IMG/VR virus record: IMGVR_UViG_3300042691_011955
Reading direction: 5' to 3' (one strand)
From: an uncultured virus (IMG/VR IMGVR_UViG_3300042691_011955)
Taxonomy: Duplodnaviria > Heunggongvirae > Uroviricota > Caudoviricetes
DNA length: 64,000 nucleotides
A program made the translations under genes and the position numbers. Each line of letters starts with the position of its first letter. Positions within the stretch are counted from its first letter, which is position 1. Positions 1-45,202 of this stretch are shown here, one piece after another. The notes under the pieces are model-generated. The model had not been told where the DNA came from, ran no database searches, and saw only the letters and a list, made by a program, of their open reading frames with translations.

Positions 1-76
1 CGAAAAGGCTTATGAAAAGGAAGACGAAGCTATGATGATTCGTCTAATTAAAATCCGTCAATCACTTTGGACATGA
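1..76 (+). CDS. 3' end of hypothetical phage protein (truncated by window edge)
   Basis: Frame reads ...EKAYEKEDEAMMIRLIKIRQSLWT-stop; TGA overlaps the next ATG (ATGA). Confidence 0.6.
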   Translation, partial: EKAYEKEDEAMMIRLIKIRQSLWT

Positions 77-831
77 ATATGACATCAGTAACACAGCTTG
101 GACAGATACTAGCACAAATTAAACCAGCGCAATACACCTGGTTAGATGATTTTGAAGTTAAGACTGAAGATCAAGAAAAGACGTTTGATGCACCATTCGA
201 TGTGTTAGCCTCTATTATTTCTGCTATTGACGCAGACGCACCACTTTGGGAAATTGGAGAAGCTTGGAAATCTCTTAAGTATTCGAAAGGATTCGATGGC
301 CTAAAGGTAACTGCTCCTAACGATTTTCAAATTCAGCGAGCAAATCAGATTCGCAAGTATTACAGGAATAAACTTACTATTCTAGCATTGAAGTCGCAGA
401 GTATGAGTAACTTTAGAGTAGATCTGCAAGAGCTGTTAAGCATGGATCCAACAAAATTAAAATTAAAGTTTTTGCCTATGATGATTCGCTTGCCTTCTTT
501 TTATAAAGAAGATACTATAATAGATAATCTAAAGAAAACTACAGTAGTGCCCATGCATAATCGTGCTCGACCCGAAAAGGAATCTAGGACATTGACATTT
601 GTAGATAAGATTCATCGCAAAACTAAAAATCAAGATCTAAATTGGTACTGGTTTGTAAATGAACAAAATGTACTGCATCGTTTGAGCGTAGACGGCAAAA
701 ACAAACTAAGTCATATTCTTGAAAAGTTTCTAGATAAACCTGTAACCATTGAGGCAAATTATCCTGTTCAGACTGTGCGAGGAACTGATCTTAGTTTCTT
801 CAGTGTTGAAGGTGACTGGAAATTGTTATGA
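73..831 (+). CDS. hypothetical protein
   Basis: Long ORF; ATG at 73 overlaps upstream stop. Confidence 0.7.
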   Translation: MNMTSVTQLGQILAQIKPAQYTWLDDFEVKTEDQEKTFDAPFDVLASIISAIDADAPLWEIGEAWKSLKYSKGFDGLKVTAPNDFQIQRANQIRKYYRNKLTILALKSQSMSNFRVDLQELLSMDPTKLKLKFLPMMIRLPSFYKEDTIIDNLKKTTVVPMHNRARPEKESRTLTFVDKIHRKTKNQDLNWYWFVNEQNVLHRLSVDGKNKLSHILEKFLDKPVTIEANYPVQTVRGTDLSFFSVEGDWKLL

Positions 832-1049
832 ATCGAGATGTAAGAACTCTAGTAGATCTTGCTATGGAAGTTGAAATGGAAGATCCTATTGACTGGGGCA
901 TGTTAGCTATTAGTGAACATGATGCTTATGAACTTATGGCTTCCCATGTACTTGAGATGAATAATGATAACTTGACAAACAAGGCTATTATTGTTAAACT
1001 ACTAGTAGAGAATTTTGTACTAAATCTCAAACTAATGGAATTAAGATAA
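828..1049 (+). CDS. hypothetical protein
   Basis: 73-aa ORF overlapping both neighbours. Confidence 0.65.
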   Translation: MNRDVRTLVDLAMEVEMEDPIDWGMLAISEHDAYELMASHVLEMNNDNLTNKAIIVKLLVENFVLNLKLMELR

Positions 1050-1291
1050 TGACAGTTAAAAAAACATACGCAGATACTGTTGATCTGCACTGCACGGATA
1101 AAAATGAAATAGTGCCAGCTGAAATCCTAGAATTTCGCCCAGGCATGCTTATTAGTGTAAGTATACAAAGAAAAATTAAAATGATACTTAAATTTAATCA
1201 TCGAGGCAATAACTATGTTGGCTCGATGGCAGGTCTTGAGTTTACTACTGCTGGCCCAAAAGAAACTATTACTTACGAAGGAAGAAGATAA
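1049..1291 (+). CDS. hypothetical protein
   Basis: 80-aa ORF with TAATG coupling at both ends. Confidence 0.65.
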
Positions 1292-1908
1292 TGCCACTAA
1301 TCCCAATGGTTGTTGAACAAGAGACTCGCGGCGAGCGTTCATATGATATTTACAGCCGCTTGCTCAAAGATCGAATTGTTATGCTCAACGGCCCTGTAGA
1401 AGATAATATGGCTAATGTAATTGTAGCACAGTTATTATTTTTAGAAGCAGAGAATCCAGACAAAGACATTAACCTATATATTAATTCGCCTGGCGGTGCA
1501 GTTACCGCAGGACTAGCTATCTACGACACAATGCAGTACATCAAATGTGATATTCGTACTATTGTCATGGGTCAGGCATGTTCAATGGGCTCGTTCCTAG
1601 CACAAGCAGGCACGGCAGGTAAGCGAGTAGTACTGCCTGAAAGCCGTACTATGATACATCGAGTTAGTTCAGGTACTCCTGGAACACGTGGTTCAGTTCA
1701 TGTACAAGAACTTCAATTTGAAGATGCTATTCGTTCAATGGAAGAAAGTAAAAAACTCAACAAGCGATTAACCGAGCTGTATGTCAAACACAACACCAAA
1801 GGCAAACAATACGATGAGCTTTTTGAAACAATGAAATTTGATACTTTCTTAAATGCACAAGAAGCGGTTGATTACGGTTTAGCAGATAAAGTTGTAGAGA
1901 AACGATAA
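1291..1908 (+). CDS. clpP: ATP-dependent Clp protease proteolytic subunit
   Basis: [39 protein letters not shown] (catalytic Ser), MIH (catalytic His). Confidence 0.97.
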
Positions 1909-2096
1909 TGAGTGACGGAGGAAAAGGCAGTGCAAGAAGAAAAGGCGCAGATGATGCAAAATACAGCAGTGGATGGGACCGAATCTACGGTACAAGATAC
2001 AATGGCGGCACTAAAAGGGATCCCAACAGAGGAAGCCCTGACCCAGATGCTCAAAGAACAGATCCTAAGAGTGACGTTCCTCAAACTAGACGGTGA
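1908..2096 (+). CDS. small protein (MSDGGKGS...WDRIYG), overlapping the next ORF
   Basis: ATG coupled to clpP stop; N-terminus resembles small phage proteins recalled from memory. Confidence 0.4.
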   Translation: MSDGGKGSARRKGADDAKYSSGWDRIYGTRYNGGTKRDPNRGSPDPDAQRTDPKSDVPQTRR

Positions 2097-2289
2097 TCAA
2101 AGAATTATGACCTGTACAAAAAGTTTGAATTATATTCCAGAAAAGTCACGTCCATCCAACAGTTCAAAGCCAAGCAAGCCTGGCACAATCAATGTTTGGG
2201 ACATAGACGCTGACAACTGGCGTAGTTTTCGATATGATCGAGTTCAAGCAGTTGAACTTAACATTTCAAACATACAAGAGGTTGGTTGA
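1912..2289 (+). CDS. WYL_2/SH3-like fold protein; start uncertain
   Basis: VTFLKLDGDQRIMTCT and VWDIDADNWRSFRYDRV motifs. Confidence 0.75.
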   Translation: MTEEKAVQEEKAQMMQNTAVDGTESTVQDTMAALKGIPTEEALTQMLKEQILRVTFLKLDGDQRIMTCTKSLNYIPEKSRPSNSSKPSKPGTINVWDIDADNWRSFRYDRVQAVELNISNIQEVG

Positions 2290-2314
2290 CAAATCTCCGT
2301 TTTGAGCCTATTAT
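2286..2314 (+). promoter_or_regulatory. sigma70-type promoter for leader 1
   Basis: TTGACA-17-TATTAT; late-type ATAAATA also at 2338-2344. Confidence 0.65.
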
Positions 2315-2349
2315 AAGGTAGTTTTTTAGAACTGGGATAAATAAAATAT

Positions 2350-2466
2350 ATGAAAAAGGAAATGCTTTCAATGCTATTCGTAACACTATCCCCCGTAGCG
2401 TCAACAACACTTGGATCAGAGAATCCAGGCAGTGACGCCACCATGACTAGGGTTATGAAGTTGTAA
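2350..2466 (+). CDS. putative attenuator leader peptide 1 (MKKEMLSMLFVTLSPVASTTLGSENPGSDATMTRVMKL)
   Basis: Short ORF between promoter and terminator; codons 11-31 use only amino acids whose tRNAs are in cluster 1. Confidence 0.7.
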   Translation: MKKEMLSMLFVTLSPVASTTLGSENPGSDATMTRVMKL

Positions 2467-2485
2467 GTAAGCACTAACAAACTTT

Positions 2486-2517
2486 AAAAACCCTGGACTA
2501 AACACCCAGGGTTTTTT
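2486..2517 (+). terminator. intrinsic terminator of attenuator 1
   Basis: AAAAACCCTGG...CCAGGGTTTTTT; its 5' arm can instead pair with 2447-2468 (antiterminator). Confidence 0.85.
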
Positions 2518-2543
2518 GTTGCGTAAAAACAACAAAAAAACAG

Positions 2544-2572
2544 TTGACAGGCAAGCAATAAGGCAATACAAT
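2544..2572 (+). promoter_or_regulatory. sigma70 promoter P1 of tRNA cluster 1
   Basis: TTGACA-17-TACAAT. Confidence 0.75.
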
Positions 2573-2636
2573 AGACACTTACTTAAACAACAAAGCGGCT
2601 GCAGAGTTGTTCAAGTAAAAAGATTTTAAAAAGTAG

Positions 2637-2665
2637 TTGACACAGAACTTTTTCGGTGTTATACT
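2637..2665 (+). promoter_or_regulatory. sigma70 promoter P2 of tRNA cluster 1
   Basis: TTGACA-17-TATACT with extended -10 TGn. Confidence 0.8.
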
Positions 2666-2667
2666 AC

Positions 2668-2702
2668 GTAAACTGTAACAAGTTTACAAACGTTCTTTAA
2701 AA
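2668..2702 (+). promoter_or_regulatory. rrn-like boxB/boxA antitermination site
   Basis: Hairpin GTAAACT/AGTTTAC followed by CGTTCTTTAAAA (rrn boxA consensus TGCTCTTTAACA). Confidence 0.6.
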
Positions 2703-2772
2703 AGTTGAATACGGAAACAGATTAATCTGTTTTCATCTGTGTACAAAAGTGTACAGTTGAAAGCAGATTTAT

Positions 2773-2848
2773 TCCTCAGTAGCACAGCGGTAGTTGCACT
2801 TGACTGTTAATCAAGGTGTCCGTGGTTCGATCCCACGCTGAGGAGCCA
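2773..2848 (+). tRNA. tRNA-Asn(GTT)
   Basis: Cloverleaf, loop CT-GTT-AA, TTCGA T-loop, CCA. Confidence 0.95.
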
Positions 2849-2853
2849 ATTTA

Positions 2854-2943
2854 GGAGCGTGGGCCGGATGGTAAGGCAGCGGTTTGCTAAACCGTAGATC
2901 ACGTAAAAAGGGTCACAGGGTTCGACTCCCTGACGCTCCGCCA
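2854..2943 (+). tRNA. tRNA-Ser(GCT)
   Basis: Cloverleaf with long variable arm, TT-GCT-AA, GCCA end. Confidence 0.95.
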
Positions 2944-2951
2944 AATTAAAT

Positions 2952-3026
2952 GCACGATTCGTCTATCGGTTAGGACGCTGCCCTTTCAAGGCGGAAAGAC
3001 GAGTTCGATTCTCGTATCGTGTACCA
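2952..3026 (+). tRNA. tRNA-Glu(TTC)
   Basis: Cloverleaf, CT-TTC-AA, CCA. Confidence 0.95.
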
Positions 3027-3031
3027 AGTTT

Positions 3032-3276
3032 TTTAGTAAGTTGTTTAAGGTTACCTAGTCCGCTAGGGGTGAACGAAAAGGTGATTGCGTAGCAGAAATG
3101 CTCGGCCTTGATACCCATGAAGCAGGAGGGTTCTAGAGTATGACGAGACACCATCGAGTCAAAGGGCAAGAACTATTCCAAACTCCAGGAAGGCGGCGGA
3201 ACTACTAGGCCTGTAATGAGGTCTTGACGCAAGTTGGTGATGCGTGTCAAGAACTTCCTCAAACAATTTATTAAAG
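3032..3276 (+). ncRNA. unknown ~245-nt structured RNA
   Basis: Ends pair (TTTAGTAAGTTGTTTAAGG / CCTCAAACAATTTATTAAA); internal hairpins include AGCA-GAAA-TGCT and CCTAG/CTAGG. Confidence 0.6.
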
Positions 3277-3281
3277 ATTTT

Positions 3282-3358
3282 GCACCGTTAGCTCAGTTGG
3301 TTAGATCGCTTGCCTGTCACGCAAGAGGCCAGGGGTTCGAGTCCCCTACGGTGCGCCA
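3282..3358 (+). tRNA. tRNA-Asp(GTC)
   Basis: Cloverleaf, CT-GTC-AC, CCA. Confidence 0.95.
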
Positions 3359-3364
3359 TATTAG

Positions 3365-3392
3365 TTGACTTTGATTGTAAAGAGTGTACAAT
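3365..3392 (+). promoter_or_regulatory. internal sigma70-type promoter
   Basis: TTGACT-16-TACAAT. Confidence 0.5.
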
Positions 3393-3411
3393 TAAAATAT
3401 AGAAAGTTTTT

Positions 3412-3485
3412 GCCCTTATAGTTAAATGGTATAACGACGGTTTTGTAATCCGTAGTTTGCAGTTCGATTCTGTGTAGGGGCACCA
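3412..3485 (+). tRNA. tRNA-Thr(TGT)
   Basis: Cloverleaf, TT-TGT-AA, CCA. Confidence 0.93.
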
Positions 3486-3499
3486 AAGTGTTAGTTTTT

Positions 3500-3583
3500 G
3501 CCCCGGTGGTGTAATGGTAGCCACGCTGGTCTTAGAAGCCAGTGCCGCAAGGCGTGTCGGTTCGAGTCCGACCTGGGGCACCA
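3500..3583 (+). tRNA. tRNA-Leu(TAG)
   Basis: Cloverleaf with variable arm, CT-TAG-AA, CCA. Confidence 0.95.
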
Positions 3584-3593
3584 ATGTTAGTAA

Positions 3594-3667
3594 GCGGGAT
3601 TAGTTTAATGGTAAAACAGCAGATTTCCAATCTTCGGTCATCAGTTCGATTCTGATATCCCGCTCCA
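3594..3667 (+). tRNA. tRNA-Gly(TCC)
   Basis: GCGGG start, TT-TCC-AA, TCCA end. Confidence 0.93.
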
Positions 3668-3683
3668 ATTTTAAAAGGTAGAT

Positions 3684-3908
3684 ATGAAAGCAAAAACTTT
3701 AAGTCGTGGTCCAACTATTGATACTAATAAATGTGTTGAAAATGTTGGTGGTAGATTTGATCTAGTATTAATTGCTTCAGTTAGAGCTAGAGAAATAGCA
3801 AGGAAACACAGGAACGACGAAATGTCTACCCAAGTTAATGCGCCAGTTTCTGCACTGCTTGAAATTCAAGAAGGCAAAATTGGTAGAGAGTATCTAAGAA
3901 AAGTATAA
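3684..3908 (+). CDS. rpoZ: RNA polymerase omega subunit homologue
   Basis: VENVGGRFDLVLIASVRAREI...ALLEIQEGKI matches the omega core motifs. Confidence 0.88.
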   Translation: MKAKTLSRGPTIDTNKCVENVGGRFDLVLIASVRAREIARKHRNDEMSTQVNAPVSALLEIQEGKIGREYLRKV

Positions 3909-3909
3909 T

Positions 3910-3987
3910 CGGAGTGTGGCGCAGTCTGGCTAGCGCACCTGGTTTGGGACCAGGGGGTCCAAGGTTCGAATCCTTGTACTCCGACCA
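3910..3987 (+). tRNA. tRNA-Pro(TGG)
   Basis: CGG start, TT-TGG-GA, CCA. Confidence 0.95.
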
Positions 3988-3993
3988 TTTTTT

Positions 3994-4068
3994 GGGCTGT
4001 TAGTGATAATGGGAGCACGGGGCCTTTGCAAGGCTTAGGTCGGGGTTCGATCCCCCGACGGTCCACCA
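3994..4068 (+). tRNA. tRNA-Ala(TGC)
   Basis: G3:U70 pair, TT-TGC-AA, CCA. Confidence 0.95.
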
Positions 4069-4073
4069 AATAT

Positions 4074-4147
4074 GCGGGTATGATGTAATGGTAACCTGAA
4101 ACCTTGCCAAGGTTTATTCGCGAGTTCGATTCTCGCTACCCGCTCCA
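4074..4147 (+). tRNA. tRNA-Gly(GCC)
   Basis: GCGGG start, TT-GCC-AA, TCCA end. Confidence 0.93.
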
Positions 4148-4176
4148 AATGTTTTAGAAATATTTTTAAAAAGATG

Positions 4177-4205
4177 TTGACAAGACAGTAAAAATTTGCT
4201 AAAAT
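4177..4205 (+). promoter_or_regulatory. sigma70 promoter for the large ncRNA
   Basis: TTGACA-17-TAAAAT with TGn extension. Confidence 0.75.
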
Positions 4206-4212
4206 AGACACA

Positions 4213-5105
4213 TGTTAAGAATTTAAGGGTGGTTTATCATCCTGTAGGCGGCTTGCCGTTTACAAAGAATAAGTGTGGCGACACACCCAAAGCTAGAATG
4301 CCTACATACTAGCGCCAGCAATGGTTCACGTAAACAAGCCTGCTCACTACCGCGAGGTAGCGTTCACTCATAAGACCGGTGGATGTAACAGCAAAGCTGA
4401 TGTATGGGAAAGAACATTGTTCGACGTGCCGCAAGGAACACGGGGCAGTGAAAAGTAACAGGTGGTGCTGACTTCCATATAAAACCAATCAGTTAGTTGG
4501 TATGAGAAAGGGTAGTGTACTTGTTCGAGGGGTCGCACCTAAGAGCTCGTATACAATGTAAATGGTTAGTGGGCTGTAGTAATACAGTACACCGATCGTG
4601 AAACATCACTGAGTAGCTCGCGAGGCAAAAGGTATGTGGTGAGTTGTATTTTGTATTCCAAAAGAGTATGAAGCAACTGAGGCAGCTCATCGCGGTAGGT
4701 TAATGTAGATCAATGGTAGATCATCTTCCTGTTAAGAAGAATGCTGTCGGTTCAAATCCGATCATTTAAACAAAAATGCAAAGACTGCCTCGGTCGTATG
4801 TGAAAAGTATCTAATACTTGAGTGGTAACACAATCAAGTCTAATGAAGCTCGCAAGGTAACATTAGTTTATACTGGAAGTTTCGTAGGGTGTTAGCGCAC
4901 TCGAATAGCTCGCAAGGTTAACGGAATAGATGGTGTAGAATAGCATATGGCGTCAAGTCTACTGCCTGACTTAAAACGGCGATACTGTAAGCAGACTAGG
5001 TTACATAGTGATATGGACTTAGTGGATGTCTAGAGAACGTATACTCGCAAGGTGTACGGTAATGCTAGAGGTGCTTATGGTTAAGATGTAATCTCAGTCT
5101 TAACA
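4213..5105 (+). ncRNA. giant structured ncRNA, GOLLD-like
   Basis: ~890 nt with no credible ORF, many GCAA/GCGA-tetraloop hairpins, tRNA-cluster context, embedded tRNA-like domain. Confidence 0.75.
4699..4770 (+). other. tRNA-Asn(GTT)-like domain inside the large ncRNA
   Basis: D arm GATC/GATC, anticodon arm TCTTC-CTGTTAA-GAAGA, T arm GTCGG-TTCAAAT-CCGAT; only 4-bp acceptor stem, no CCA. Confidence 0.75.
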
Positions 5106-5180
5106 CTATTCTAAAACACATTACCACAAACAGCAATTAGAGCTGGTTGTATAACAATGTCGTAGTGTGTTTCAGAATAG
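5106..5180 (+). ncRNA. long-stem-enclosed small RNA
   Basis: CTATTCTAAAACACATTAC pairs with GTAGTGTGTTTCAGAATAG; inner CAGC-AATTAGA-GCTG hairpin. Confidence 0.55.
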
Positions 5181-5188
5181 CAGAAATG

Positions 5189-5424
5189 TTATGCACATGA
5201 CAATTCGTTGTCAGCAAGAGAATGTCACGCTATAAAGGTTTCTTCGAAGGACTGATATAGTAGAAGGGGACGGGTTCAACTCCCGGCTGATCGGAAGATC
5301 GGCGCAGATTGGTTGCTAACTGGACTAGTATCCCAAGTGACGTACCGAGTCCCGCTCGAGCTTGTTAATTCGGGTGAATGGTGCTTATAACGATGGAAGT
5401 ACTAATGAGTTGTCAGCTGTATAA
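5189..5424 (+). ncRNA. unknown ~235-nt structured RNA
   Basis: Terminal helix TTATGCA..TGACAATTCGTT / AATGAGTTGTCA..TGTATAA; several internal hairpins. Confidence 0.6.
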
Positions 5425-5432
5425 TATTTTGA

Positions 5433-5511
5433 AGCGGAGTAGAGGAGTCCAGTCGTCCTCGCTAGTCTCATAAGCTAGAGATCGCAGGTGCGAATCCTGC
5501 CTCCGCAACCA
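5433..5511 (+). tRNA. tRNA-Met(CAT), initiator-like, atypical
   Basis: CT-CAT-AA loop, 1:72 mismatch, AACCA end; T-loop TGCGAAT. Confidence 0.85.
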
Positions 5512-5525
5512 GTTTTATTTTCAAA

Positions 5526-5615
5526 GGAAGCGTGGCAGAGCCCGGCTTATTGCGTTAGTCTTGAAAACTAAAGACTCGAAAGGGTCCGTGAGTTCGAATC
5601 TCACCGCTTCCGCCA
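5526..5615 (+). tRNA. tRNA-Ser(TGA)
   Basis: Long variable arm, CT-TGA-AA, GCCA end. Confidence 0.95.
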
Positions 5616-5630
5616 GACATTAAAAAATAC

Positions 5631-5659
5631 TTGACAAGTAGACACAAATCATATACAAT
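5631..5659 (+). promoter_or_regulatory. sigma70 promoter
   Basis: TTGACA-17-TACAAT. Confidence 0.75.
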
Positions 5660-5685
5660 TAACACATAGAGAAAAGGACACAAAC

Positions 5686-6258
5686 ATGGAACTTACACTT
5701 CGTAAAGCAAGCGCACTTCAGAACAGCATCAACGATACTGTTAAAAGTATCACGTTGACACAAACAATTCGCATCAACGAGTTCCAAGAGGCTGAAGCTG
5801 AAATATCTAAGGCTGCTCAGGAATTTAACAGCAATGTGTTTCGTCGTGTAGCACTGACAGATGTGCTGTACGAAATTCGCAAGGCAGTGAGCCGTGCAAA
5901 TGCACAAGCAGGTGTCAATGAAAAGTTGGCAGACTTGGCTCAGCTTGAGAAAGATATCCAATTCTTTTCAGGTCTAACAGCTCATGACGTTCGTGAGTCT
6001 GCTCAAGTCATTGAGGGCAAGTTGAATAAAATTCGGAACCGCAAAGAAGACACTCGTGCAAGTTTGTACGGCCACAGTGATGAAGTTAGTACTTCTGTAT
6101 TGACTCGCAAAGATGTAGATACATTCCGTGCAAAAGTAGCAGAAGCCAAAAAGGCCAAGCAGAAATTGCAGGACGAGCTCTTAGAGCTTAATGTTCGTAC
6201 AACTATTGCCCTAAGTGGTAAGGCTGTGGACATTCTTAAGCACGAAGAATTGATCTAA
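5686..6258 (+). CDS. helical/coiled-coil hypothetical protein (reminiscent of the DIP1984 family)
   Basis: 190 aa, AAGGA RBS, own promoter; family resemblance from memory only. Confidence 0.7.
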   Translation: MELTLRKASALQNSINDTVKSITLTQTIRINEFQEAEAEISKAAQEFNSNVFRRVALTDVLYEIRKAVSRANAQAGVNEKLADLAQLEKDIQFFSGLTAHDVRESAQVIEGKLNKIRNRKEDTRASLYGHSDEVSTSVLTRKDVDTFRAKVAEAKKAKQKLQDELLELNVRTTIALSGKAVDILKHEELI

Positions 6259-6261
6259 GGA

Positions 6262-6870
6262 AAACCCGGGCTCCCTTGCCCGTTATACACAGGGGGTGGG
6301 GCAGTCACCATAAAGAGTGCTAGGCGTGTAGTGCATTGGCCTTCCGATCCCGTGTAGGGAATCCGGGGACGCATTAGGTGAGGTTTAGCACCTTTCCAAA
6401 AGAATAAATGTTATGGACAGAGTAACCGCTCAGTCTAGGGCTCATGTGGTGTGAGTAGCTAGACACTTTATAAATGCTCTTTGAAGTTTAACTACACTTG
6501 AGAACACCAGTAGGTACTAAGTCGACTAACTGCTGAACGTGCAAGGAAGATACGGAGTTAAACAGTTTGGTTCGATTCCAACAGAGAGCACCTATAAGGT
6601 TTTGGTAGTATGCTGGTAACAGTAAACTACCCGGAAGAAGGCGAGAGATGAGGATGAACACCGTTATCGCTTCATGCGATGACTCCAATACTGGCAATCA
6701 GTCTTGAAAACTGATCGTGTTTGTATGCCCCGAATCTATCGAACTTGTGATTTGCTGTTCGGAAATACGCAAGCCACTGTGCTTTGCATATTGTAATTTG
6801 CTTAGGGCCTAGAGTAACCTCAGCCCGTTTGCACCTTGCACAGTTCATTACTTACTTGCTAACTTTCGTT
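6262..6870 (+). ncRNA. ~600-nt structured non-coding region with several modules
   Basis: No credible ORF; pseudoknot, hairpins, tRNA-like module, isolated anticodon loop, TTG-rich repeats, T-tract end. Confidence 0.55.
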
Positions 6871-6904
6871 TTTTTATAAGTAATCTTACAAAGGAGACAA
6901 ACTT

Positions 6905-7579
6905 ATGTATGCAACAGGTGTTTTTCGTTCTGCATCGCAGATTAATAGTGCAATGGGCCGTGTTTACGGACATATGGCACTGGCAGTTATCACATCAATG
7001 ATTGTAAGTTATCTTGTAGGATCAAATACAACGCTGATGGAATTTTTCTTTACAGGCGCAATGAAATGGCTTGTAATCTTTGCGCCGCTTGTAGCCATTC
7101 TTGGCGTTAGCTTTGCAATGGACAAAATGAGTAAGAGTGCGTTACAGCTATTTTTACATGGATTTGCCGCATTAATGGGTCTAAGTTTTGCTACAATCTT
7201 TGTAGTATATAACATGGGAAGCATTGTAAGCGCATTCATGGGAGCTGCCGTTCTATTTGCTACAATGAGTGGCTATGGCTACTTCACTAAACGTAATTTG
7301 GACGGAGTTGGCCAATTTATGTTCATTGGGTTGATTGCGATTGTTATTGCAAGTATAATCAATATTTTTATTGGTAGTACAGTTTTTCAAATGGTCATTA
7401 GTGCTATCGGAATTATTGTGTTCTTAGGCTTAACAGCATACGACACACAAAAGATTCGTGAGATGGTTAGTTACGACAATGATGGTAAGGCAGAAATTGC
7501 AGGCGCTCTTAGCTTGTACTTAGACTTTATCAACTTGTTCTTAATGTTACTACAACTATTTGGTGGTCGTAAGGACTAA
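6905..7579 (+). CDS. Bax inhibitor-1/YccA family membrane protein
   Basis: Multiple hydrophobic helices, LTAYDTQKI, ALSLYLDFINLFL. Confidence 0.95.
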   Translation: MYATGVFRSASQINSAMGRVYGHMALAVITSMIVSYLVGSNTTLMEFFFTGAMKWLVIFAPLVAILGVSFAMDKMSKSALQLFLHGFAALMGLSFATIFVVYNMGSIVSAFMGAAVLFATMSGYGYFTKRNLDGVGQFMFIGLIAIVIASIINIFIGSTVFQMVISAIGIIVFLGLTAYDTQKIREMVSYDNDGKAEIAGALSLYLDFINLFLMLLQLFGGRKD

Positions 7580-7586
7580 AGAATTT

Positions 7587-7661
7587 GCCTGGTTAGCTCA
7601 GGGGTAGAGCAACGCCTTTACACGGCGAAGGTCCGCGGTTCGAAACCGTGACCAGGTACCA
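7587..7661 (+). tRNA. tRNA-Val(TAC)
   Basis: Cloverleaf, TT-TAC-AC, CCA. Confidence 0.95.
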
Positions 7662-7731
7662 GAAATGTTTCCGTATTCAAGAGTGTGGCAAAAATACAAC
7701 AATATTTTTGTCACTTTTTAAAGAAAATCTC

Positions 7732-7760
7732 TTGACAGAGATAAATAAATACAGTATACT
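7732..7760 (+). promoter_or_regulatory. sigma70 promoter for leader 2 and tRNA cluster 2
   Basis: TTGACA-17-TATACT; spacer contains late-type ATAAATA. Confidence 0.8.
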
Positions 7761-7796
7761 ATACACATAGTAAGAAATTAACTAACAGAAAGAAAG

Positions 7797-7898
7797 ATGA
7801 TCAAAATGTTTAAGCAAATTAGAAAACATCAGATGTTTTGCATTCGCTGGTATCGACTACCAGGCGAGGGCCTTTCTGTAGGAGCAAGTTACGCATAA
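7797..7898 (+). CDS. putative attenuator leader peptide 2 (MIKMFKQIRKHQMFCIRWYRLPGEGLSVGASYA)
   Basis: First 20 codons use only, and all of, the 10 amino acids of tRNA cluster 2. Confidence 0.8.
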   Translation: MIKMFKQIRKHQMFCIRWYRLPGEGLSVGASYA

Positions 7899-7920
7899 CC
7901 AGTAACAGCTCAAAAAACAA

Positions 7921-7962
7921 AAAGACCCTCGGAATGTAAAATACTCCGGGGGTTTTTCTTTT
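7921..7962 (+). terminator. intrinsic terminator of attenuator 2
   Basis: AAAGACCCTCGGA...TCCGGGGGTTTTTCTTTT; its 5' arm can instead pair with 7865-7892. Confidence 0.85.
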
Positions 7963-8062
7963 AGTGCTATAGGAAACGAGATCCTGCTATCACTTTAAAC
8001 TAGCAAATGGGCGGCCTAGGGGATGAAGTCTGTGGCGACAACACAGATGTTAAAATCCTAGA

Positions 8063-8140
8063 GTAGTTAAGAACACTATAGGGACGACTGGACTCATAGC
8101 CCAGAACTTTGTAAAAGGCGTTATTAGTGTTCTTAACTAC
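8063..8140 (+). ncRNA. perfect 16-bp stem enclosing a CAT anticodon-like hairpin
   Basis: GTAGTTAAGAACACTA / TAGTGTTCTTAACTAC; inner CTGGA-CTCATAG-CCCAG. Confidence 0.55.
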
Positions 8141-8200
8141 ACACTCTTCATTCGCCCTGCGACGGCGTCTAAAAGCATAGCGGAGAGTGTCACTAAGTTT

Positions 8201-8287
8201 GGAGATGTAGGAAAATTGGTAACCCCAGTGGACTGTAAATCCGCCGCCCTTCGGGCACTACTGGTTCGACTCCAGTCATCTCCACCA
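8201..8287 (+). tRNA. tRNA-Tyr(GTA)
   Basis: CT-GTA-AA, variable arm, CCA. Confidence 0.95.
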
Positions 8288-8292
8288 AACAT

Positions 8293-8367
8293 AGCCGCGT
8301 AGCTCAGAGGAAGAGCACTCGCTTGATAAGCGATAGGTCGACATTTCGAAACTGTCCGTGGCTACCA
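8293..8367 (+). tRNA. tRNA-Ile(GAT)
   Basis: TT-GAT-AA, CCA; imperfect T stem. Confidence 0.88.
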
Positions 8368-8374
8368 AATTAAT

Positions 8375-8448
8375 GTATCTCTAATGTAATGGCAGCATCA
8401 CAGTCTCCAAAACTGTTCGTCGGGGTTCGAGTCCCTGGAGGTACGCCA
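8375..8448 (+). tRNA. tRNA-Trp(CCA)
   Basis: CT-CCA-AA, GCCA end. Confidence 0.94.
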
Positions 8449-8455
8449 AGTATAA

Positions 8456-8530
8456 CTCGCTTTAGTATAATGGATAATACAGTAGGCTTCTACCCTACGA
8501 ATATGGGTTCGATTCCTGTAGGCGAGGCCA
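8456..8530 (+). tRNA. tRNA-Arg(TCT)
   Basis: CT-TCT-AC, CCA. Confidence 0.94.
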
Positions 8531-8537
8531 GTAATAC

Positions 8538-8615
8538 GCACAGGTGGCAGAGAGGCCCAATGCAGTGGATTGCAAATCCGCAAAACCGTGAGTTCGAATC
8601 TCACCCTGTGCTCCA
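8538..8615 (+). tRNA. tRNA-Cys(GCA)
   Basis: TT-GCA-AA, U73 discriminator, CCA. Confidence 0.94.
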
Positions 8616-8737
8616 GTTACTGCAACAATCCGCTCGGGCTTCGTAGCGGAATGTAGTATTGAAGCCTATAAGTCCTGTGGAAGCAGGGGTCTAGATCCGT
8701 GTCCAAAGCGGTGTGGCTAACGAAGTGCCAAATTTAT

Positions 8738-8811
8738 TGGGGTATAGTGTAATGGTAGCACCACAGACTTTGACTCTGTTAGTCTAGGTTCGAACCCTAG
8801 TACCCCTGCCA
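8738..8811 (+). tRNA. tRNA-Gln(TTG)
   Basis: CT-TTG-AC, GCCA end. Confidence 0.94.
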
Positions 8812-8812
8812 T

Positions 8813-8888
8813 AGTGATGTAGCATAGCGGCTAATGTACCTCCTTCATACGGAGTTTATCGTCGGTTCGAGTCCGACCATCACTACCA
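8813..8888 (+). tRNA. tRNA-Met(CAT) elongator (or lysidine-modified Ile2)
   Basis: TT-CAT-AC, paired 1:72, CCA. Confidence 0.88.
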
Positions 8889-8906
8889 ACTTTAAAGGAG
8901 AAATAT

Positions 8907-9098
8907 ATGCCAACGATTAGATATCTTGATACTAGTATGTACGGATCGTATTTTGTCGACTGCGAAATATTAGAAAAAATAGACGAAGACACATTTAAGA
9001 TTAAATTCTATGATGACAATATAGATGAATATGAAATAAAGGTAGTTGAGCGTGATCGTCTTGAGTTTCCTAAGTTTAGTGATTACGCATCTTATTAA
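8907..9098 (+). CDS. small acidic hypothetical protein inside tRNA cluster 2
   Basis: AAGGAG RBS, 63 aa. Confidence 0.7.
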   Translation: MPTIRYLDTSMYGSYFVDCEILEKIDEDTFKIKFYDDNIDEYEIKVVERDRLEFPKFSDYASY

Positions 9099-9272
9099 GG
9101 AGAAAACAAAATGGGGCGATCGTAGTTTTACTTATGATAGTAGCTTTAATTTACTTTATTGACAAAAATTTAAAATAGGAGAATGACATGAAACGTTCAA
9201 GTAAACGTTAGTGTCAACCTTGACCCCGTATTGGTCCTGGTTGGCACATTAAATCAATTTAATTACGACCAA

Positions 9273-9348
9273 CCACTTGTAGCGTTAACGGTAGCGCACT
9301 TGACTCTTAATCAATGAGGTGTGAGTTCGAATCTCACCGGGTGGACCA
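9273..9348 (+). tRNA. tRNA-Lys(CTT)
   Basis: CT-CTT-AA, CCA. Confidence 0.9.
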
Positions 9349-9352
9349 ATAC

Positions 9353-9428
9353 GGGAGTATGGTGAAATGGTTATCACAGCAGACTTTTAATCTGCCAGTT
9401 CCGGGTTCGAGTCCCGGTGCTCCTACCA
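9353..9428 (+). tRNA. tRNA-Lys(TTT)
   Basis: CT-TTT-AA, CCA. Confidence 0.95.
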
Positions 9429-9558
9429 TAGATAAACACACTTTCAATCTGAATTGACAGATACAAACAACCAAGGGGAGCCTCTGGGTTCATCCAGTTT
9501 CATCCTGAATTGACAGGAACAAGGTTGTAAGGGGAGCCGAGTGTGTTTTTCTATGGTA
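9424..9558 (+). ncRNA. stem-enclosed RNA containing two 41-nt repeat units
   Basis: Outer 19-nt stem; units 9442-9482 and 9498-9538 with covarying hairpins. Confidence 0.7.
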
Positions 9559-9561
9559 ATA

Positions 9562-9636
9562 CGGCCCTTGGTGAAATGGATATCATTTCGGTCTTCGAAA
9601 CCGACGGTGGGAGTTCGATCCTCTCAGGGCCGGCCA
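9562..9636 (+). tRNA. tRNA-Arg(TCG)
   Basis: CT-TCG-AA, CCA. Confidence 0.93.
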
Positions 9637-9643
9637 AATATAT

Positions 9644-9718
9644 ACCCCTGTCGTTCAATGGATAGGATACCATGCTACGAACGTGGGGACGGTGGTTCGA
9701 TTCCATCCAGGGGTGCCA
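9644..9718 (+). tRNA. tRNA-Arg(ACG)
   Basis: CT-ACG-AA, CCA. Confidence 0.93.
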
Positions 9719-9724
9719 ATCAAT

Positions 9725-9798
9725 GGTGTTGTTAGTGTAGTGGTAACACGACTGTCTGTGAAACAGTAGACCAGGGTTCGATTCCCGACTTCACCCCA
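9725..9798 (+). tRNA. tRNA-His(GTG), imperfect stems
   Basis: G-1, CT-GTG-AA, C73, CCA; two U:U mismatches in the acceptor stem. Confidence 0.8.
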
Positions 9799-9802
9799 AA
9801 TT

Positions 9803-9924
9803 TGTAGTAACCAGCTAGGTGCTGTGTAAAAGGTGTTGCGGATAGTAGAGGTCTCATAGAGATAAGCTCGCTGTCGTTAAAGATCGTGACGCAAACTAAT
9901 TGAGTTTTGTCTCAACCTACTACA
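9803..9924 (+). ncRNA. stem-enclosed structured RNA
   Basis: TGTAGTA/TACTACA closing helix with internal hairpins. Confidence 0.45.
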
Positions 9925-9934
9925 TTTTATTTTT

Positions 9935-10010
9935 GCCGCTTTAGCTGATGTGGTCATAGCAACGGATTGAAAATCCGAGGAACCCTGTTCGATCCGGGGA
10001 GGCGGCACCA
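9935..10010 (+). tRNA. tRNA-Phe(GAA)
   Basis: TT-GAA-AA, CCA. Confidence 0.92.
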
Positions 10011-10034
10011 TTAACTGTGTATGATTTTATATTA

Positions 10035-10111
10035 TGGAGCGACCGGGGGATTCGAACCTCCGCTTCTTGGGTTACAGTCCCAAGTGTAGTGACCACTCTA
10101 CTACGAGTCGC
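10035..10111 (-). tRNA. atypical tRNA-like gene, identity unclear
   Basis: Reverse complement folds with D arm, 6-bp anticodon stem around ACTGTAA, TTCGAAT T-loop and TCCA end; bulged acceptor and T stems. Confidence 0.65.
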
Positions 10112-10119
10112 ATATTGAT

Positions 10120-10962
10120 TTAAGGTATTGTGCTACTAGTTGCCAACAGTTCTTTTATTTTGTCAAAAATTATCTTATTTCCTTCTGCGTTCATTGCATT
10201 AGCAGATTGTTGATAACCAATGTTATATTGGCTGTTATCTTTATATAGCTCGCGCATAGAAAGATCTACAGGTCCAGACGTAATAGTATACCAAGAAGGG
10301 TACCATTGATCTTTACTAAAAAAATGTACACAGGGTATTTTTTTATTATGCAAGTACGAATCAATTTGCATTAATGCCCCATAGTATCTGTTTAATTGTA
10401 AATCTGGATGATACATATATTTTCTAGTTAGTTCAAAAGCAGTCCAAAGTTCTTGGTAAAACTTTTCATCGTCTGATGCTATTCGAACCTGATCTAATAG
10501 TGCTTGTTTAATTTCACTACTATCCCCATCTTGCCATTTTATAAATGCATCAGTATAGTTTTCAAAATGAATGTTATAATATTCTAATAATTGTAAACAT
10601 GCTCCGTTAGGGACGTTTTCAAAAAAATCAATATAAAAATCATGTTCTTTAAAGTCAGTTCCCCACATTGATTCTACCCAATTTCGAGCAGTGTATTTTC
10701 TATCAAATGTAGTTTTGTCTATGTTCGAAACATCTTTGTTCCAGCTAGGCATAAAGATATGATACGGTGCGGCATGGAATATAATTGCTGTATCTAGTTT
10801 TTTAGTTTTCTTTAAATTGAATAATATTCTTTCCTCACTGCAATGTGGGATTCCAGAATGGACAATATTAGCATCAAACTCTTTTTTTAATAAACTTACA
10901 AAATTCCATTCTTGGTTAGGATCATATCTAGAAATACTATCTCCATACACACCTATGTTCAT
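10120..10962 (-). CDS. hypothetical protein (SGNH-hydrolase-like N-terminus)
   Basis: IGVYGDS start motif; 280 aa. Confidence 0.7.
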   Translation of the reverse strand: MNIGVYGDSISRYDPNQEWNFVSLLKKEFDANIVHSGIPHCSEERILFNLKKTKKLDTAIIFHAAPYHIFMPSWNKDVSNIDKTTFDRKYTARNWVESMWGTDFKEHDFYIDFFENVPNGACLQLLEYYNIHFENYTDAFIKWQDGDSSEIKQALLDQVRIASDDEKFYQELWTAFELTRKYMYHPDLQLNRYYGALMQIDSYLHNKKIPCVHFFSKDQWYPSWYTITSGPVDLSMRELYKDNSQYNIGYQQSANAMNAEGNKIIFDKIKELLATSSTIP

Positions 10963-11047
10963 TCTGAACTCCTAAAAAAGTATTTAGTAGTAGTTTTTTT
11001 TTAAAAATTATATGTGGATCGGTAGAAGATTAATTTTACCACACCAG

Positions 11048-11076
11048 TTGACAACATTACAACTTGACTATATAAT
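11048..11076 (+). promoter_or_regulatory. sigma70 promoter
   Basis: TTGACA-17-TATAAT. Confidence 0.85.
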
Positions 11077-11082
11077 AGCAAT

Positions 11083-24022: not shown

Positions 24023-24108
24023 ATACTATTTACATTAAGATTATAAAATTTTACGATAAATAATTGAGCAGGAAAGAAATCCTGCTACATCTAATATCGG
24101 AGTAAAGT

Positions 24109-45051: not shown

Positions 45052-45202
45052 TAAGTCCTCCTTACGGATATTGAGTAACTGTGTACAGCGTTCCGGGCTG
45101 GAACACCCTACAAAGATATTTAGCTCAGACCTCCAAAAGTAAAAACATAATGTTATCTTTTTGATGCGATAAATAAGTATAGTAGATTTATAGGACAGCA
45201 CA

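What the first reader, a model, noticed from the sequence alone, without database searches (positions are those of the whole stretch)
2286..2517. Second, complementary attenuator in front of tRNA cluster 1
Seen: promoter 2286-2314, leader ORF 2350-2466, terminator 2486-2517. Codons 11-31 (VTLSPVASTTLGSENPGSDAT) are 21 consecutive residues drawn only from Asn, Ser, Glu, Asp, Thr, Leu, Gly, Pro, Ala and Val. These are the elongator tRNAs of cluster 1 (2773-7661), and all 10 appear. Isoacceptors fit as well: GGA and GGC for the two Gly tRNAs, TCA and AGT for the two Ser tRNAs, CTA/CTT for Leu-TAG. The ORF end (2447-2468) can pair with 2473-2496 as an antiterminator, and an upstream hairpin forms at 2398-2438. 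The sequence is unrelated to leader 2, so the same design appears twice. Caveat: further sigma70 promoters lie downstream of this terminator (2544, 2637, 3365, 4177, 5631), so attenuation may control only part of the output, such as late transcripts from ATAAATA at 2338.
Basis: partly seen in the sequence, partly recalled or inferred. Interest (0 to 1): 0.9.

Follow-up and report, generated by a model that had tools for sequence, protein, structure and literature searches.

The report
Leader-peptide attenuator gating phage tRNA genes
A giant uncultured lake phage puts a tiny translated test gene, written only in the ten amino acids whose tRNAs follow it, and a switchable transcription stop in front of a tRNA gene cluster, so it probably makes more of those tRNAs when ribosomes read those codons slowly.

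Summary
A near-consensus promoter (2286-2314), a 38-codon ORF (2350-2466) and an intrinsic terminator (2486-2516) lie where stated. Codons 11-31 use only, and all of, the ten amino acids served by tRNA cluster 1.

The reading as a ribosome-sensing transcription attenuator is supported by comparison, not by experiment. The terminator belongs to a conserved element found in at least 120 IMG/VR stretches. Of 80 fetched, 77 carry a 30-63 codon ORF ending 25-38 nt before it, and 52 of 70 distinct leaders contain all 20 amino acids. Most stand before large tRNA clusters.

Only two lineages split their tRNAs into two units: this phage and a complete 357.6-kb relative. In both, each unit's leader is confined to that unit's amino acids. 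The antiterminator pairs the ORF's last codons with the terminator's 5' arm and shows compensatory changes.

Limits:
- No RNA evidence was obtained.
- Codon or isoacceptor-level tuning is not supported.
- Two strong promoters downstream of the terminator bypass it here.

An unrelated analogue exists in cultured Ralstonia phage RsoM2USA. This scan had already noted the same idea on other DNA, in about 98 genomes. I found no paper describing it.

The parts
2286..2314 (+). sigma-70-type promoter of the leader transcript (TTGACA-17-TATTAT); start site expected near 2321
   Evidence: 11 of 12 matches. In the family, 67 of 69 leaders have a promoter-like site of at least 10/12 within 160 nt upstream of the leader ATG.
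2336..2344 (+). GATAAATAA motif shared with the leader-2 promoter region (7740-7748) and with both leaders of G006; role unknown, possibly a phage late-promoter-like element
   Evidence: 4 matches in the window against 1.43 expected. Searches show it in G006.
2356..2361 (+). AAGGAA, a Shine-Dalgarno-like site 10 nt before ATG 2371
   Evidence: Sequence. The arrangement AAGGAA...CTTTCAATG is conserved in G006.
2350..2466 (+). leader ORF (38 codons from ATG 2350; in-frame ATGs at 2362 and 2371, the last being the likely start)
   Evidence: Identical in two near-identical contigs.
2380..2442 (+). sensing run: 21 codons using only and all of N,S,E,D,T,L,G,P,A,V
   Evidence: The homologous run SSLVETTPGASNPGADLLGL in G006 has the same property.
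2395..2441 (+). hairpin inside the sensing run (core 2410-2430); possible RNA polymerase pause site (inferred)
   Evidence: The core YUGGA...UCCAGG is kept in G006. The region is not better than shuffles (z -1.3).
2447..2496 (+). antiterminator: the last six codons plus the stop codon pair with the 5' arm of the terminator
   Evidence: dG -18.3, z -4.1. Family: the pairing is predicted in 68 of 70 members, with compensatory changes. Nascent-RNA model.
2486..2522 (+). intrinsic terminator (stem 2486-2516) with its U run
   Evidence: The motif is conserved in at least 120 IMG/VR stretches.
2544..2665 (+). two near-consensus promoters (2544-2572, 2637-2665) downstream of the terminator that bypass the attenuator
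   Evidence: Both are conserved in G006. Only 19 of 63 family members have such a site.
2773..7661 (+). tRNA cluster 1 (N,S,E,D,T,L,G,P,A,G,N,M,S,V), the presumed regulated genes
7732..7960 (+). context: the complementary leader-2 module (promoter, ORF 7797-7898, antiterminator, terminator 7921-7953) before cluster 2

Best explanation
This is a ribosome-mediated (leader-peptide) transcription attenuator that gates read-through from the 2286 promoter into tRNA cluster 1.

Proposed mechanism:
1. RNA polymerase transcribes a short ORF. Its central 21 codons sample the ten amino acids whose tRNAs lie downstream.
2. As the RNA emerges, the ORF's last codons (2447-2466) pair with 2473-2496. This antiterminator ties up the 5' arm of the terminator, so polymerase reads on into the tRNA genes.
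3. If the ribosome decodes the run quickly and reaches the last codons or the stop, it covers the antiterminator's 5' arm. The terminator (2486-2516) then forms and transcription ends near 2517-2522.
4. If the ribosome stalls in the run because any of those ten charged tRNAs is scarce, or if the leader is not translated at all, the antiterminator persists and the phage makes more of exactly those tRNAs.

Shown: the parts, their conservation, the helix covariation, and the match between leader composition and tRNA set.

Inferred: translation of the ORF, kinetic coupling of ribosome and polymerase, and the direction and size of the response.
For: Anatomy and statistics in the window.

Homologous family:
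- The terminator motif retrieved at least 120 IMG/VR stretches.
- Of 80 fetched loci, 77 have a 30-63 codon ORF ending 25-38 nt before the motif.
- There are 70 distinct peptides. 52 have all 20 amino acids, 10 have 19, 4 have 18 and 2 have 17. About 3% would be expected to have all 20 even when drawing from the leaders' own pooled composition. Among ordinary 25-70 aa ORFs the figures are 22 of 960 (+ strand) and 19 of 1366 (- strand).
- The leader frame is open for at least 30 codons in 70 of 70, against 16 of 140 for the other frames.
- Rare residues are kept but move. Cys is present in 62 of 68 pan-type leaders, once in 55, spread over 30 alignment columns. His is present in 68 of 68, over 21 columns. 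Codon-position entropies are nearly equal at 1.27/1.22/1.31 bits. This points to selection on which amino acids are present, not on a protein sequence.

Composition tracks the tRNAs:
- The two 13-14-kind leaders are this phage and G006/L208. Their downstream unit holds only the ten S1 tRNAs plus Met.
- G006's second leader, MTKQIFKHMFCIRWYQPGGGIS, precedes I,W,C,K,Q,M,K,R,H,F.
- Among 47 pan-type leaders with at least 16 tRNAs downstream, an amino acid missing from the leader tends to be one with no tRNA downstream: 7 of 13, against 99 of 880. Odds ratio 9.2, Fisher p 2.6e-4. The sequences are related, so these cases are not independent.

Structure:
- The CCC of the terminator's 5' arm is predicted to pair with a GGG lying 3-30 nt before the stop codon in 68 of 70 members.
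- Core helix: 91.5% of 480 cells are paired. There are 32 double-change cells against 13.9 +/- 5.3 in shuffles (0 of 500 reach it). Slid controls reach at most 61%.
- CC:GG changes to UU:AA while the terminator's 3' arm stays U.

Nascent-RNA model for this leader:
- Antiterminator probability is 0.97 with no ribosome, or with the A site at codons 12-27.
- It is 0.71 at codon 29, and 0 at codon 31 and at the stop.
- The sensing run therefore ends where stalling stops helping.

Promoters: 67 of 69 leaders have a promoter upstream. 44 of 63 have none between the terminator and the first tRNA.

Independent analogue: cultured Ralstonia phage RsoM2USA has a 37-codon ORF whose first 31 residues all belong to the set of the next 15 tRNAs. 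The next longest such run in 40 kb is 19. It has an antiterminator (-24.1, z -5.1) and a terminator (-19.2, z -5.0).
Against: - No expression or 3'-end evidence. Metatranscriptome contigs covered only tRNA bodies.
- Two 11/12 promoters (2544, 2637) lie downstream of the terminator and are conserved in G006. Here the attenuator can control only part of cluster 1's transcription.
- No codon or isoacceptor-level match in the family: 1502 of 1868 leader codons are readable by downstream tRNAs, against 1477 expected (z 1.8). For Leu/Arg/Ser, z is -1.5.
- At equilibrium the full-length leader folds into the terminator whatever 30 nt are masked (P 0.83-0.96). The switch must therefore be kinetic, which is assumed.
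- The ribosome-binding site is weak and the start codon ambiguous.
- A Phe codon (not one of the ten) sits at residue 10. It is kept near the start in G006 (MFTF).
- Composition tracking is imperfect in pan-type leaders. 6 of 13 amino acids absent from a leader do have a tRNA downstream. L177 keeps D, E and Y although those tRNAs lie upstream of it.
- The closest distinct relative found through the 190-aa protein (L111, 82%) shows no leader on its short contig.
Confidence: 0.7

Rival explanations
1. A sensor of general translation activity rather than of particular tRNAs. The switch reports only whether ribosomes are loading and moving at all, for example after host shut-off or ribosome-targeting defence. 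The amino-acid make-up of the leader matters little.
For: Without a ribosome the nascent RNA is predicted to form the antiterminator (P 0.97), so any loss of translation gives read-through. Most family members use all 20 amino acids. No isoacceptor-level tuning was found.
Against: A general sensor gives no reason to exclude ten amino acids from the sensing run, yet two diverged lineages do so, each in two leaders with complementary sets. Amino acids missing from leaders tend to lack a downstream tRNA. Rare residues are retained while changing position.
Confidence: 0.15
2. A small protein gene with its own promoter and terminator. The peptide itself has a function, and the terminator merely ends its transcript and insulates the tRNA promoters.
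For: Pan-type leaders share conserved positions: a nearly fixed Trp and an N-D-R-T-P-E block. Two strong promoters follow the terminator in this phage.
Against: Codon-position entropies are nearly equal (1.27/1.22/1.31 bits), unlike a protein under purifying selection. The conserved block is conserved at all three codon positions. The window's peptide shares no such block with the pan-type leaders, yet it keeps the ORF, the geometry and the composition rule. The ORF's 3' end is always the antiterminator arm.
Confidence: 0.08
3. An ordinary terminator of the upstream ClpP/WYL operon, with an incidental open frame in the spacer.
For: The same terminator hairpin follows a 128-136 aa gene, with no tRNAs nearby, in 3 of 80 loci (L189, L219, L233). 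Runs of 21 or more residues from the ten common amino acids occur 12 times in the window's six frames.
Against: A promoter lies between the upstream gene and the ORF. The ORF is conserved in 70 of 70 members. The all-ten run is unique in the 98-kb record and recurs in G006 with a different sequence. The antiterminator helix covaries.
Confidence: 0.04

Closest known systems
Leader-peptide transcription attenuators of enterobacterial amino-acid operons (trpL, hisL, leuL, pheL; multivalent thrL, ilvL). Recalled textbook knowledge. pheL was seen only as the abstract of PMC3082878 in the listing.
   Same: A promoter-proximal short ORF carries the codons to be sensed. An intrinsic terminator lies before the regulated genes. 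A mutually exclusive antiterminator shares the terminator's 5' arm. The position of the ribosome decides which structure forms.
   Different: The regulated genes are tRNA genes of a phage, not biosynthetic enzymes. The leader samples ten (or, in relatives, all twenty) amino acids one to four times each, instead of repeating one to three. No region-1:2 anti-antiterminator was found, so an untranslated leader is predicted to read through rather than terminate. There is no sequence relationship and no Rfam match.
pheM leader of the pheST (phenylalanyl-tRNA synthetase) operon of E. coli (recalled)
   Same: Leader-peptide attenuation applied to a gene of the translation apparatus, so that supply of the decoding machinery follows decoding demand.
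   Different: It senses one amino acid and controls a synthetase rather than tRNAs. It is cellular, not viral.
T-box riboswitches (recalled)
   Same: Transcription antitermination that responds to tRNA charging and controls translation-related genes.
   Different: T-boxes bind uncharged tRNA directly and need no translated ORF. No T-box or other Rfam family matched 1-12000 at E up to 0.1.
Ribosome-stalling uORF attenuators that sense translation stress: whiB7 uORF in mycobacteria (abstracts of PMC10274678 and 10.1101/2025.10.10.681568, listing) and vmlR of Bacillus subtilis (abstract of PMC9226507, same listing)
   Same: A stalled ribosome in a short upstream ORF prevents terminator formation. 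The pan-20 leaders of the relatives resemble such broad sensors.
   Different: Those respond to antibiotics or alanine starvation and control resistance genes. Here the output is the tRNAs for the very amino acids sampled.
Unannotated leader before the tRNA block of Ralstonia phage RsoM2USA (MG752970.1, about 87248-87361, minus strand; found here)
   Same: A short ORF whose first 31 residues all belong to the set of the following tRNAs. The antiterminator is formed by the ORF's last codons. A terminator stands just before the first tRNA.
   Different: Unrelated in sequence. It has a different amino-acid set (M,I,N,Q,K,R,F,A,V,P,D,T) and belongs to a cultured phage of a different host.

Membership tests
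Ribosome-mediated leader-peptide transcription attenuator | Short ORF close to the transcript's 5' end with a usable start | tested here: met
   ORF 2350-2466 lies about 30-50 nt after the expected start of the 2286 promoter. AAGGAA sits 10 nt before ATG 2371 and is conserved in G006. The frame is open in 70 of 70 family members. Translation itself is not shown.
Ribosome-mediated leader-peptide transcription attenuator | Codons in the ORF correspond to the amino acids or tRNAs relevant to the regulated genes | tested here: met
   21 consecutive codons use only and all ten amino acids of cluster 1. The same holds in G006. Family-level association. The match is at amino-acid level only; the isoacceptor level is not met.
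Ribosome-mediated leader-peptide transcription attenuator | Intrinsic terminator between the leader and the regulated genes | tested here: met
   Stem 2486-2516 plus U run, dG -15.7, z -3.3. 95.9% of cells are paired across 70 sequences, partly by construction of the search pattern.
Ribosome-mediated leader-peptide transcription attenuator | Mutually exclusive antiterminator sharing the terminator's 5' arm | tested here: met
   2447-2496, dG -18.3, z -4.1. Predicted in 68 of 70 members. Compensatory changes.
Ribosome-mediated leader-peptide transcription attenuator | Geometry such that a ribosome at the end of the ORF favours the terminator and a ribosome stalled at the sensed codons favours the antiterminator | tested here: met
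   The antiterminator's 5' arm lies 3-30 nt before the stop codon in the family. The masking model gives P 0.97 for stalls at codons 12-27 and 0 at codon 31 and at the stop. This is a model only, and equilibrium folding does not show the switch.
Ribosome-mediated leader-peptide transcription attenuator | Anti-antiterminator (region 1:2) that gives termination when the leader is untranslated | tested here: not met
   The upstream hairpin 2395-2441 does not overlap the antiterminator. Without a ribosome the antiterminator is predicted at P 0.97. This feature is typical of trp-type leaders but not needed for the mechanism.
Ribosome-mediated leader-peptide transcription attenuator | Read-through rises when the sensed charged tRNAs are limiting | not testable with these tools
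   This needs reporter or in vitro coupled assays. RNA contigs gave nothing on the leader.
T-box riboswitch or any curated RNA family | Match to an Rfam covariance model | tested here: not met
   No match at 2286-2517 in the E-value search of 1-12000.

The most novel reading that the evidence does not exclude
Giant freshwater phages run a demand-driven tRNA supply. A conserved family of 'codon-sampler' leader ORFs, usually carrying every one of the 20 amino acids, gates transcription of the phage's tRNA genes through an antiterminator/terminator switch. In this lineage the system has been split into two regulons that divide the 20 amino acids ten and ten, each with its own matching sampler. 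The phage can therefore replenish just the half of the tRNA pool that is failing, for instance after host tRNA-cleaving defence or phage-induced tRNA loss.
Probability: 0.6. Interest if true: 0.9.

Novelty: new variant of a known kind. Interest (0 to 1): 0.82.

Why it matters
Phage tRNA genes are usually discussed as codon-usage aids or as counter-measures to host tRNA depletion. How they are regulated is hardly known.

A leader-peptide attenuator whose output is the tRNAs themselves would close a direct feedback loop: slow decoding leads to more tRNA. It would extend a classic bacterial mechanism to a new class of genes and to viruses.

It would also give a natural sensor that reads the supply of ten, or all twenty, amino-acid tRNAs at once. 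The family found here offers many natural variants for testing: at least 120 stretches, 70 distinct leaders, a complete 357.6-kb relative and an unrelated analogue in a cultured phage.

Four literature searches found no paper describing leader-peptide attenuation of tRNA genes. Only listings and abstracts were seen. Subscription journals are not covered.

Tried and rejected
- DNA searches of GenBank phages with 1900-2800, 1-12000 and a pan-type leader gave nothing useful.
- Relatives found through the WYL_2 protein (13 loci) have tRNAs beside it only in the two near-identical contigs. The others have few or none.
- Relatives of the Bax1-I protein (at least 598, 80 kept) are not syntenic and mostly lack tRNAs.
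- Run-length scans of tRNA loci found through the 190-aa protein, using arbitrary tRNA blocks, were as noisy in the controls as in the test. A hit in L149 lies inside a 347-aa ORF.
- A strict terminator-plus-ORF scan of those loci first showed only the window-type leaders as significant. The homology was recognised only on reading the 3' ends.
- RNA runs: 20 freshwater runs hold small shares of 2250-4150. Four RNA runs were laid, and their contigs cover only tRNA bodies, with nothing on 2200-2735. This gives no verdict on expression.
- Isoacceptor or codon-level tuning: not supported.
- Equilibrium folding with masked ribosome positions does not reproduce a switch. My pair indices for leader 2 in that call were off, so its probabilities there are void.
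- Xanthomonas phage XacN1 (40 kb around its tRNAs): no comparable leader.
- No earlier notes exist on this genome itself.
Full report
**What the window is.** The window is part of a 98-kb IMG/VR virus record that CheckV rates 27% complete. This suggests a genome of roughly 350 kb. It carries 28 tRNA genes.

- The first 14 tRNAs (2773-7661) serve N,S,E,D,T,L,G,P,A,G,N,M,S,V.
- The next 13 (8201-10010) serve Y,I,W,R,C,Q,M,K,K,R,R,H,F.

Apart from Met, the two blocks split the 20 amino acids ten and ten. Neighbouring genes include ClpP, a WYL_2 protein, an RNA polymerase omega-like ORF inside the tRNA block and a Bax1-I membrane protein.

- TTGACA-17-TATTAT lies at 2286-2314 (11/12).
- The ORF at 2350-2466 reads MKKEMLSMLFVTLSPVASTTLGSENPGSDATMTRVMKL.
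- A hairpin at 2486-2516 is followed by a U run (dG -15.7, z -3.3).
- My own + strand terminator finder gives only this hairpin and the one after leader 2 between 1 and 10,000.
- Residues 11-31 use only, and all of, the ten amino acids of block 1.

How unusual is the run? Runs of 21 or more residues from these ten common amino acids are not rare: there are 12 in the window's six frames. This is the only one with all ten kinds. It is also the only qualifying 21-residue window among 195,956 in the whole record.

- For the 483-nt spacer, the chance is about 3e-5 on a random-sequence null.
- It is about 0.013 (my arithmetic) if residues are drawn with the phage proteome's 0.667 share of these amino acids.

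Leader 2 (7797-7898, MIKMFKQIRKHQMFCIRWYR...) is the mirror image. It has 20 residues from the other ten amino acids, all ten present. The next longest such run in the window is 14, and the chance is about 5e-7.

The region is identical in two near-identical contigs.

**Structure.** The last six codons and the stop (2447-2466) pair with 2473-2496 (dG -18.3, z -4.1). They use the same bases as the terminator's 5' arm. Leader 2 has the same layout (antiterminator -25.2, terminator -19).

In a model of the nascent RNA ending at 2497, I masked 30 nt as a ribosome. The antiterminator's probability was:

| Ribosome position | Antiterminator probability |
|---|---|
| No ribosome | 0.97 |
| A site at codons 12-27 | 0.97 |
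| A site at codon 29 (the only Asp codon) | 0.71 |
| A site at codon 31 | 0 |
| A site at the stop | 0 |

The ten-amino-acid run therefore ends where a stall would stop favouring read-through. The foreign residues at the C-terminus (MTRVMKL) lie in the zone where a stall would favour termination.

At equilibrium the complete leader folds into the terminator in every masked state (P 0.83-0.96). Any switch is therefore kinetic, which is typical of attenuators but is assumed here.

**The start codon.** AAGGAA (2356-2361) lies 10 nt before ATG 2371. The relative G006 has the same AAGGAA...CTTTCAATG arrangement, and its promoter's -10 ends 7 nt before its first ATG. The working peptide is therefore probably MLFVTL...; the frame is unchanged.

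**Relatives: first attempts.**

- Neighbours found through the WYL_2 protein or the Bax1-I protein were not informative.
- The 190-aa protein embedded in the tRNA block (5686-6258) led to 49 loci with large tRNA clusters in other orders.
- Crude run scans of these loci were no better than their controls.

**Relatives: the family.** Reading the 3' ends of short ORFs upstream of those clusters showed that their terminators are nearly identical to the one at 2486-2516.

I fetched 80 of them with 8-kb flanks.

- 77 of the 80 have a 30-63 codon ORF (median 46) ending 25-38 nt before the motif.
- The other three (L189, L219, L233) have the hairpin after a 128-136 aa gene with no tRNAs.
- Most of the 77 are followed within 170-1100 nt by a large tRNA cluster.
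- Among 70 distinct leader peptides, 52 contain all 20 amino acids, 10 contain 19, 4 contain 18 and 2 contain 17. The two exceptions have 13 and 14 kinds.

Expected share with all 20 kinds:

- About 3% when drawing from the leaders' own pooled composition.
- 22 of 960 (+) and 19 of 1366 (-) among ordinary 25-70 aa ORFs of related loci.

At 50% identity the leaders form 15 clusters, 10 of which include a 20-kind member.

**Evidence that the ORF is read and selected for its composition.**

- The leader frame is open for at least 30 codons in 70 of 70. The other two frames are open that far in 16 of 140.
- Variation is almost equal at the three codon positions (1.27, 1.22, 1.31 bits). This is not the pattern of a protein under ordinary purifying selection.
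- Rare residues are kept while changing place. Cys is present in 62 of 68 pan-type leaders, exactly once in 55, but spread over 30 alignment columns. His is present in 68 of 68, over 21 columns. Only Trp keeps its column.

**Composition follows the tRNA set.** The two leaders with few kinds are the window type and L208. L208 lies in a complete 357.6-kb genome, G006.

- G006's first leader is MRLSMFTFSSLVETTPGASNPGADLLGLRM. Its run SSLVETTPGASNPGADLLGL again uses only and all ten amino acids. It precedes N,S,D,A,E,G,T,L,P,G,?,M,S,V.
- Its second leader, MTKQIFKHMFCIRWYQPGGGIS, precedes I,W,C,K,Q,M,K,R,H,F.
- Another contig, L282, is of the same type.

The core of leader 1 can be aligned between the two lineages (TTLGSENPGSD against TTPGASNPGAD). 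All four replacements stay within the set. The flanks cannot be aligned but obey the rule.

Among 47 pan-type leaders with at least 16 tRNAs downstream, an amino acid missing from the leader lacks a downstream tRNA in 7 of 13 cases. For amino acids present in the leader the figure is 99 of 880. The odds ratio is 9.2 and Fisher p is 2.6e-4. The sequences are related, so this is indicative only. For example, L187 lacks D, L and Y, whose tRNAs lie upstream of that leader. Counter-examples exist: L165, L166, L173, L175, L214 and L177.

**Covariation.**

- In 68 of 70 members the CCC of the terminator's 5' arm is predicted to pair with a GGG lying 3-30 nt before the stop codon.
- Anchored counts on 65 rows show N-GGG-U-Y-Y pairing with R-R-A-CCC-N. 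CC:GG is replaced by UU:AA at two positions, and A:U/G:C alternate at a third, with 62-65 of 65 rows paired.
- On the MAFFT alignment of 70 sequences, 91.5% of 480 cells pair (shuffles 87.9 +/- 0.5). There are 32 double-change cells against 13.9 +/- 5.3, and 0 of 500 shuffles reach either value. Slid controls reach at most 61%.
- The positions that covary were not fixed by the search pattern. The terminator's 3' arm stays U opposite both G and A. The covariation therefore speaks for the antiterminator itself.

**Promoters.**

- 67 of 69 leaders have a site of at least 10/12 within 160 nt upstream.
- Only 19 of 63 have one between the terminator and the first tRNA.
- The window and G006 are in that minority, each with two strong sites.

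In this phage the attenuator can therefore modulate only transcripts from 2286 and from upstream. Cluster 2, by contrast, has no promoter-like site between leader 2's terminator and tRNA-Tyr.

**What failed.**

- Isoacceptor tuning. Over 48 leaders, 1502 of 1868 codons are readable by downstream tRNAs against 1477 expected from each phage's own synonymous usage (z 1.8). For Leu/Arg/Ser, z is -1.5.
- Expression. Four freshwater metatranscriptome runs gave contigs only on tRNA bodies.

**An independent analogue.** In cultured Ralstonia phage RsoM2USA an unannotated 37-codon ORF (MG752970.1, about 87248-87361, minus strand) reads MFNAFNNNQRQNQAAMFDVRAIAFNAKNDIKGVALVE.

- Its first 31 residues all belong to the set of the next 15 tRNAs (M,I,N,N,Q,K,R,F,A,V,F,P,K,D,T). 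The next longest such run in 40 kb is 19.
- Its last codons form an antiterminator (-24.1, z -5.1) with the 5' arm of a terminator (-19.2, z -5.0). The terminator ends 15 nt before the first tRNA.

Xanthomonas phage XacN1 showed nothing comparable.

**Earlier notes of this scan.** A word search returned 103 notes in at least 98 other genomes proposing leader-peptide attenuators before phage tRNA clusters. One of these is in a look-alike giant lake phage. They are unchecked AI notes and I do not count them as evidence. The family analysis and the cultured example above were made here.

**Literature.** Four full-text searches found no paper on leader-peptide attenuation of tRNA genes. I saw listings and abstracts only.

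**Verdict.** The finding is real. It is best read as a leader-peptide transcription attenuator of a new kind of target, and as one member of a large conserved family. Its amino-acid composition tracks the tRNAs it precedes. Confidence in the mechanism is about 0.7, because translation, coupling and response are all inferred.

Noticed in passing
window 4636-5100: GOLLD RNA (Rfam RF02032, 201 bits, E 5.6e-56) inside tRNA cluster 1, with tRNA-Asn (4699-4771) embedded in it. The conserved pseudo-ORF 'MVHVNKPAHYREVAFT...' just upstream (4321-4458) recurs in relatives (L111, L114, L153). It may be more of the same RNA.
   Followed up: partly
window 7960-8200: A 240-nt stretch between leader 2's terminator and tRNA-Tyr is conserved in G006, with what look like compensatory changes (TCTGTG...CACAGA against TCTACG...CGTAGA). 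No Rfam match was found. It may be an unknown structured RNA.
   Followed up: partly
window 3684-3908: An RNA polymerase omega-like ORF (Pfam RNA_pol_Rpb6, E 1.3e-10) sits among the tRNA genes. Homologous ORFs lie inside the tRNA clusters of relatives (L111 2042-2272, L149 9197-9424).
   Followed up: no
L002/L015/L108 (contig 3300008262_000113), corresponding to window 9273-9428: This near-identical contig lacks the two tRNA-Lys genes, yet keeps leader 2 with its four Lys codons. This looks like a recent deletion not yet mirrored in the leader.
   Followed up: no
pan-type leaders, e.g. L217:6427-6542: The block AATGATCGYACACCAGAG (read as N-D-R-T-P-E), just before the antiterminator arm, is conserved at all three codon positions in most pan-type leaders. 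It is absent from the window's leader. Its role is unknown; it could be a pause site, an arrest motif or a further pairing partner.
   Followed up: no
L114 4274-4444, L118 4477-4659: In pan-type relatives a conserved 56-60 aa ORF lies between the attenuator and the first tRNA. In the window it is replaced by two strong promoters.
   Followed up: no
window 6905-7579: A Bax1-I family membrane protein has at least 598 relatives (up to 90% identity) on other IMG/VR contigs that are not syntenic and mostly lack tRNAs. The gene was probably acquired from a host.
   Followed up: partly
L277 (G006:C1:281000-293500, reverse strand) oriented 4262-4333 and about 9600-9698: G006 has a tRNA-like gene that ARAGORN reads with a four-base anticodon (tgat), at the place corresponding to the GOLLD-embedded tRNA. 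It also has a Tyr-like tRNA sequence with extra bases before tRNA-Ile that neither ARAGORN nor Rfam called.
   Followed up: no
window 2336-2344, 7740-7748, 24055-24063, 45168-45176: GATAAATAA occurs four times (1.43 expected). Two of the copies are at the two leader promoters. In leader 2, and in both G006 leaders, it directly follows the -35 hexamer. It may be a second, phage-specific promoter signal.
   Followed up: partly
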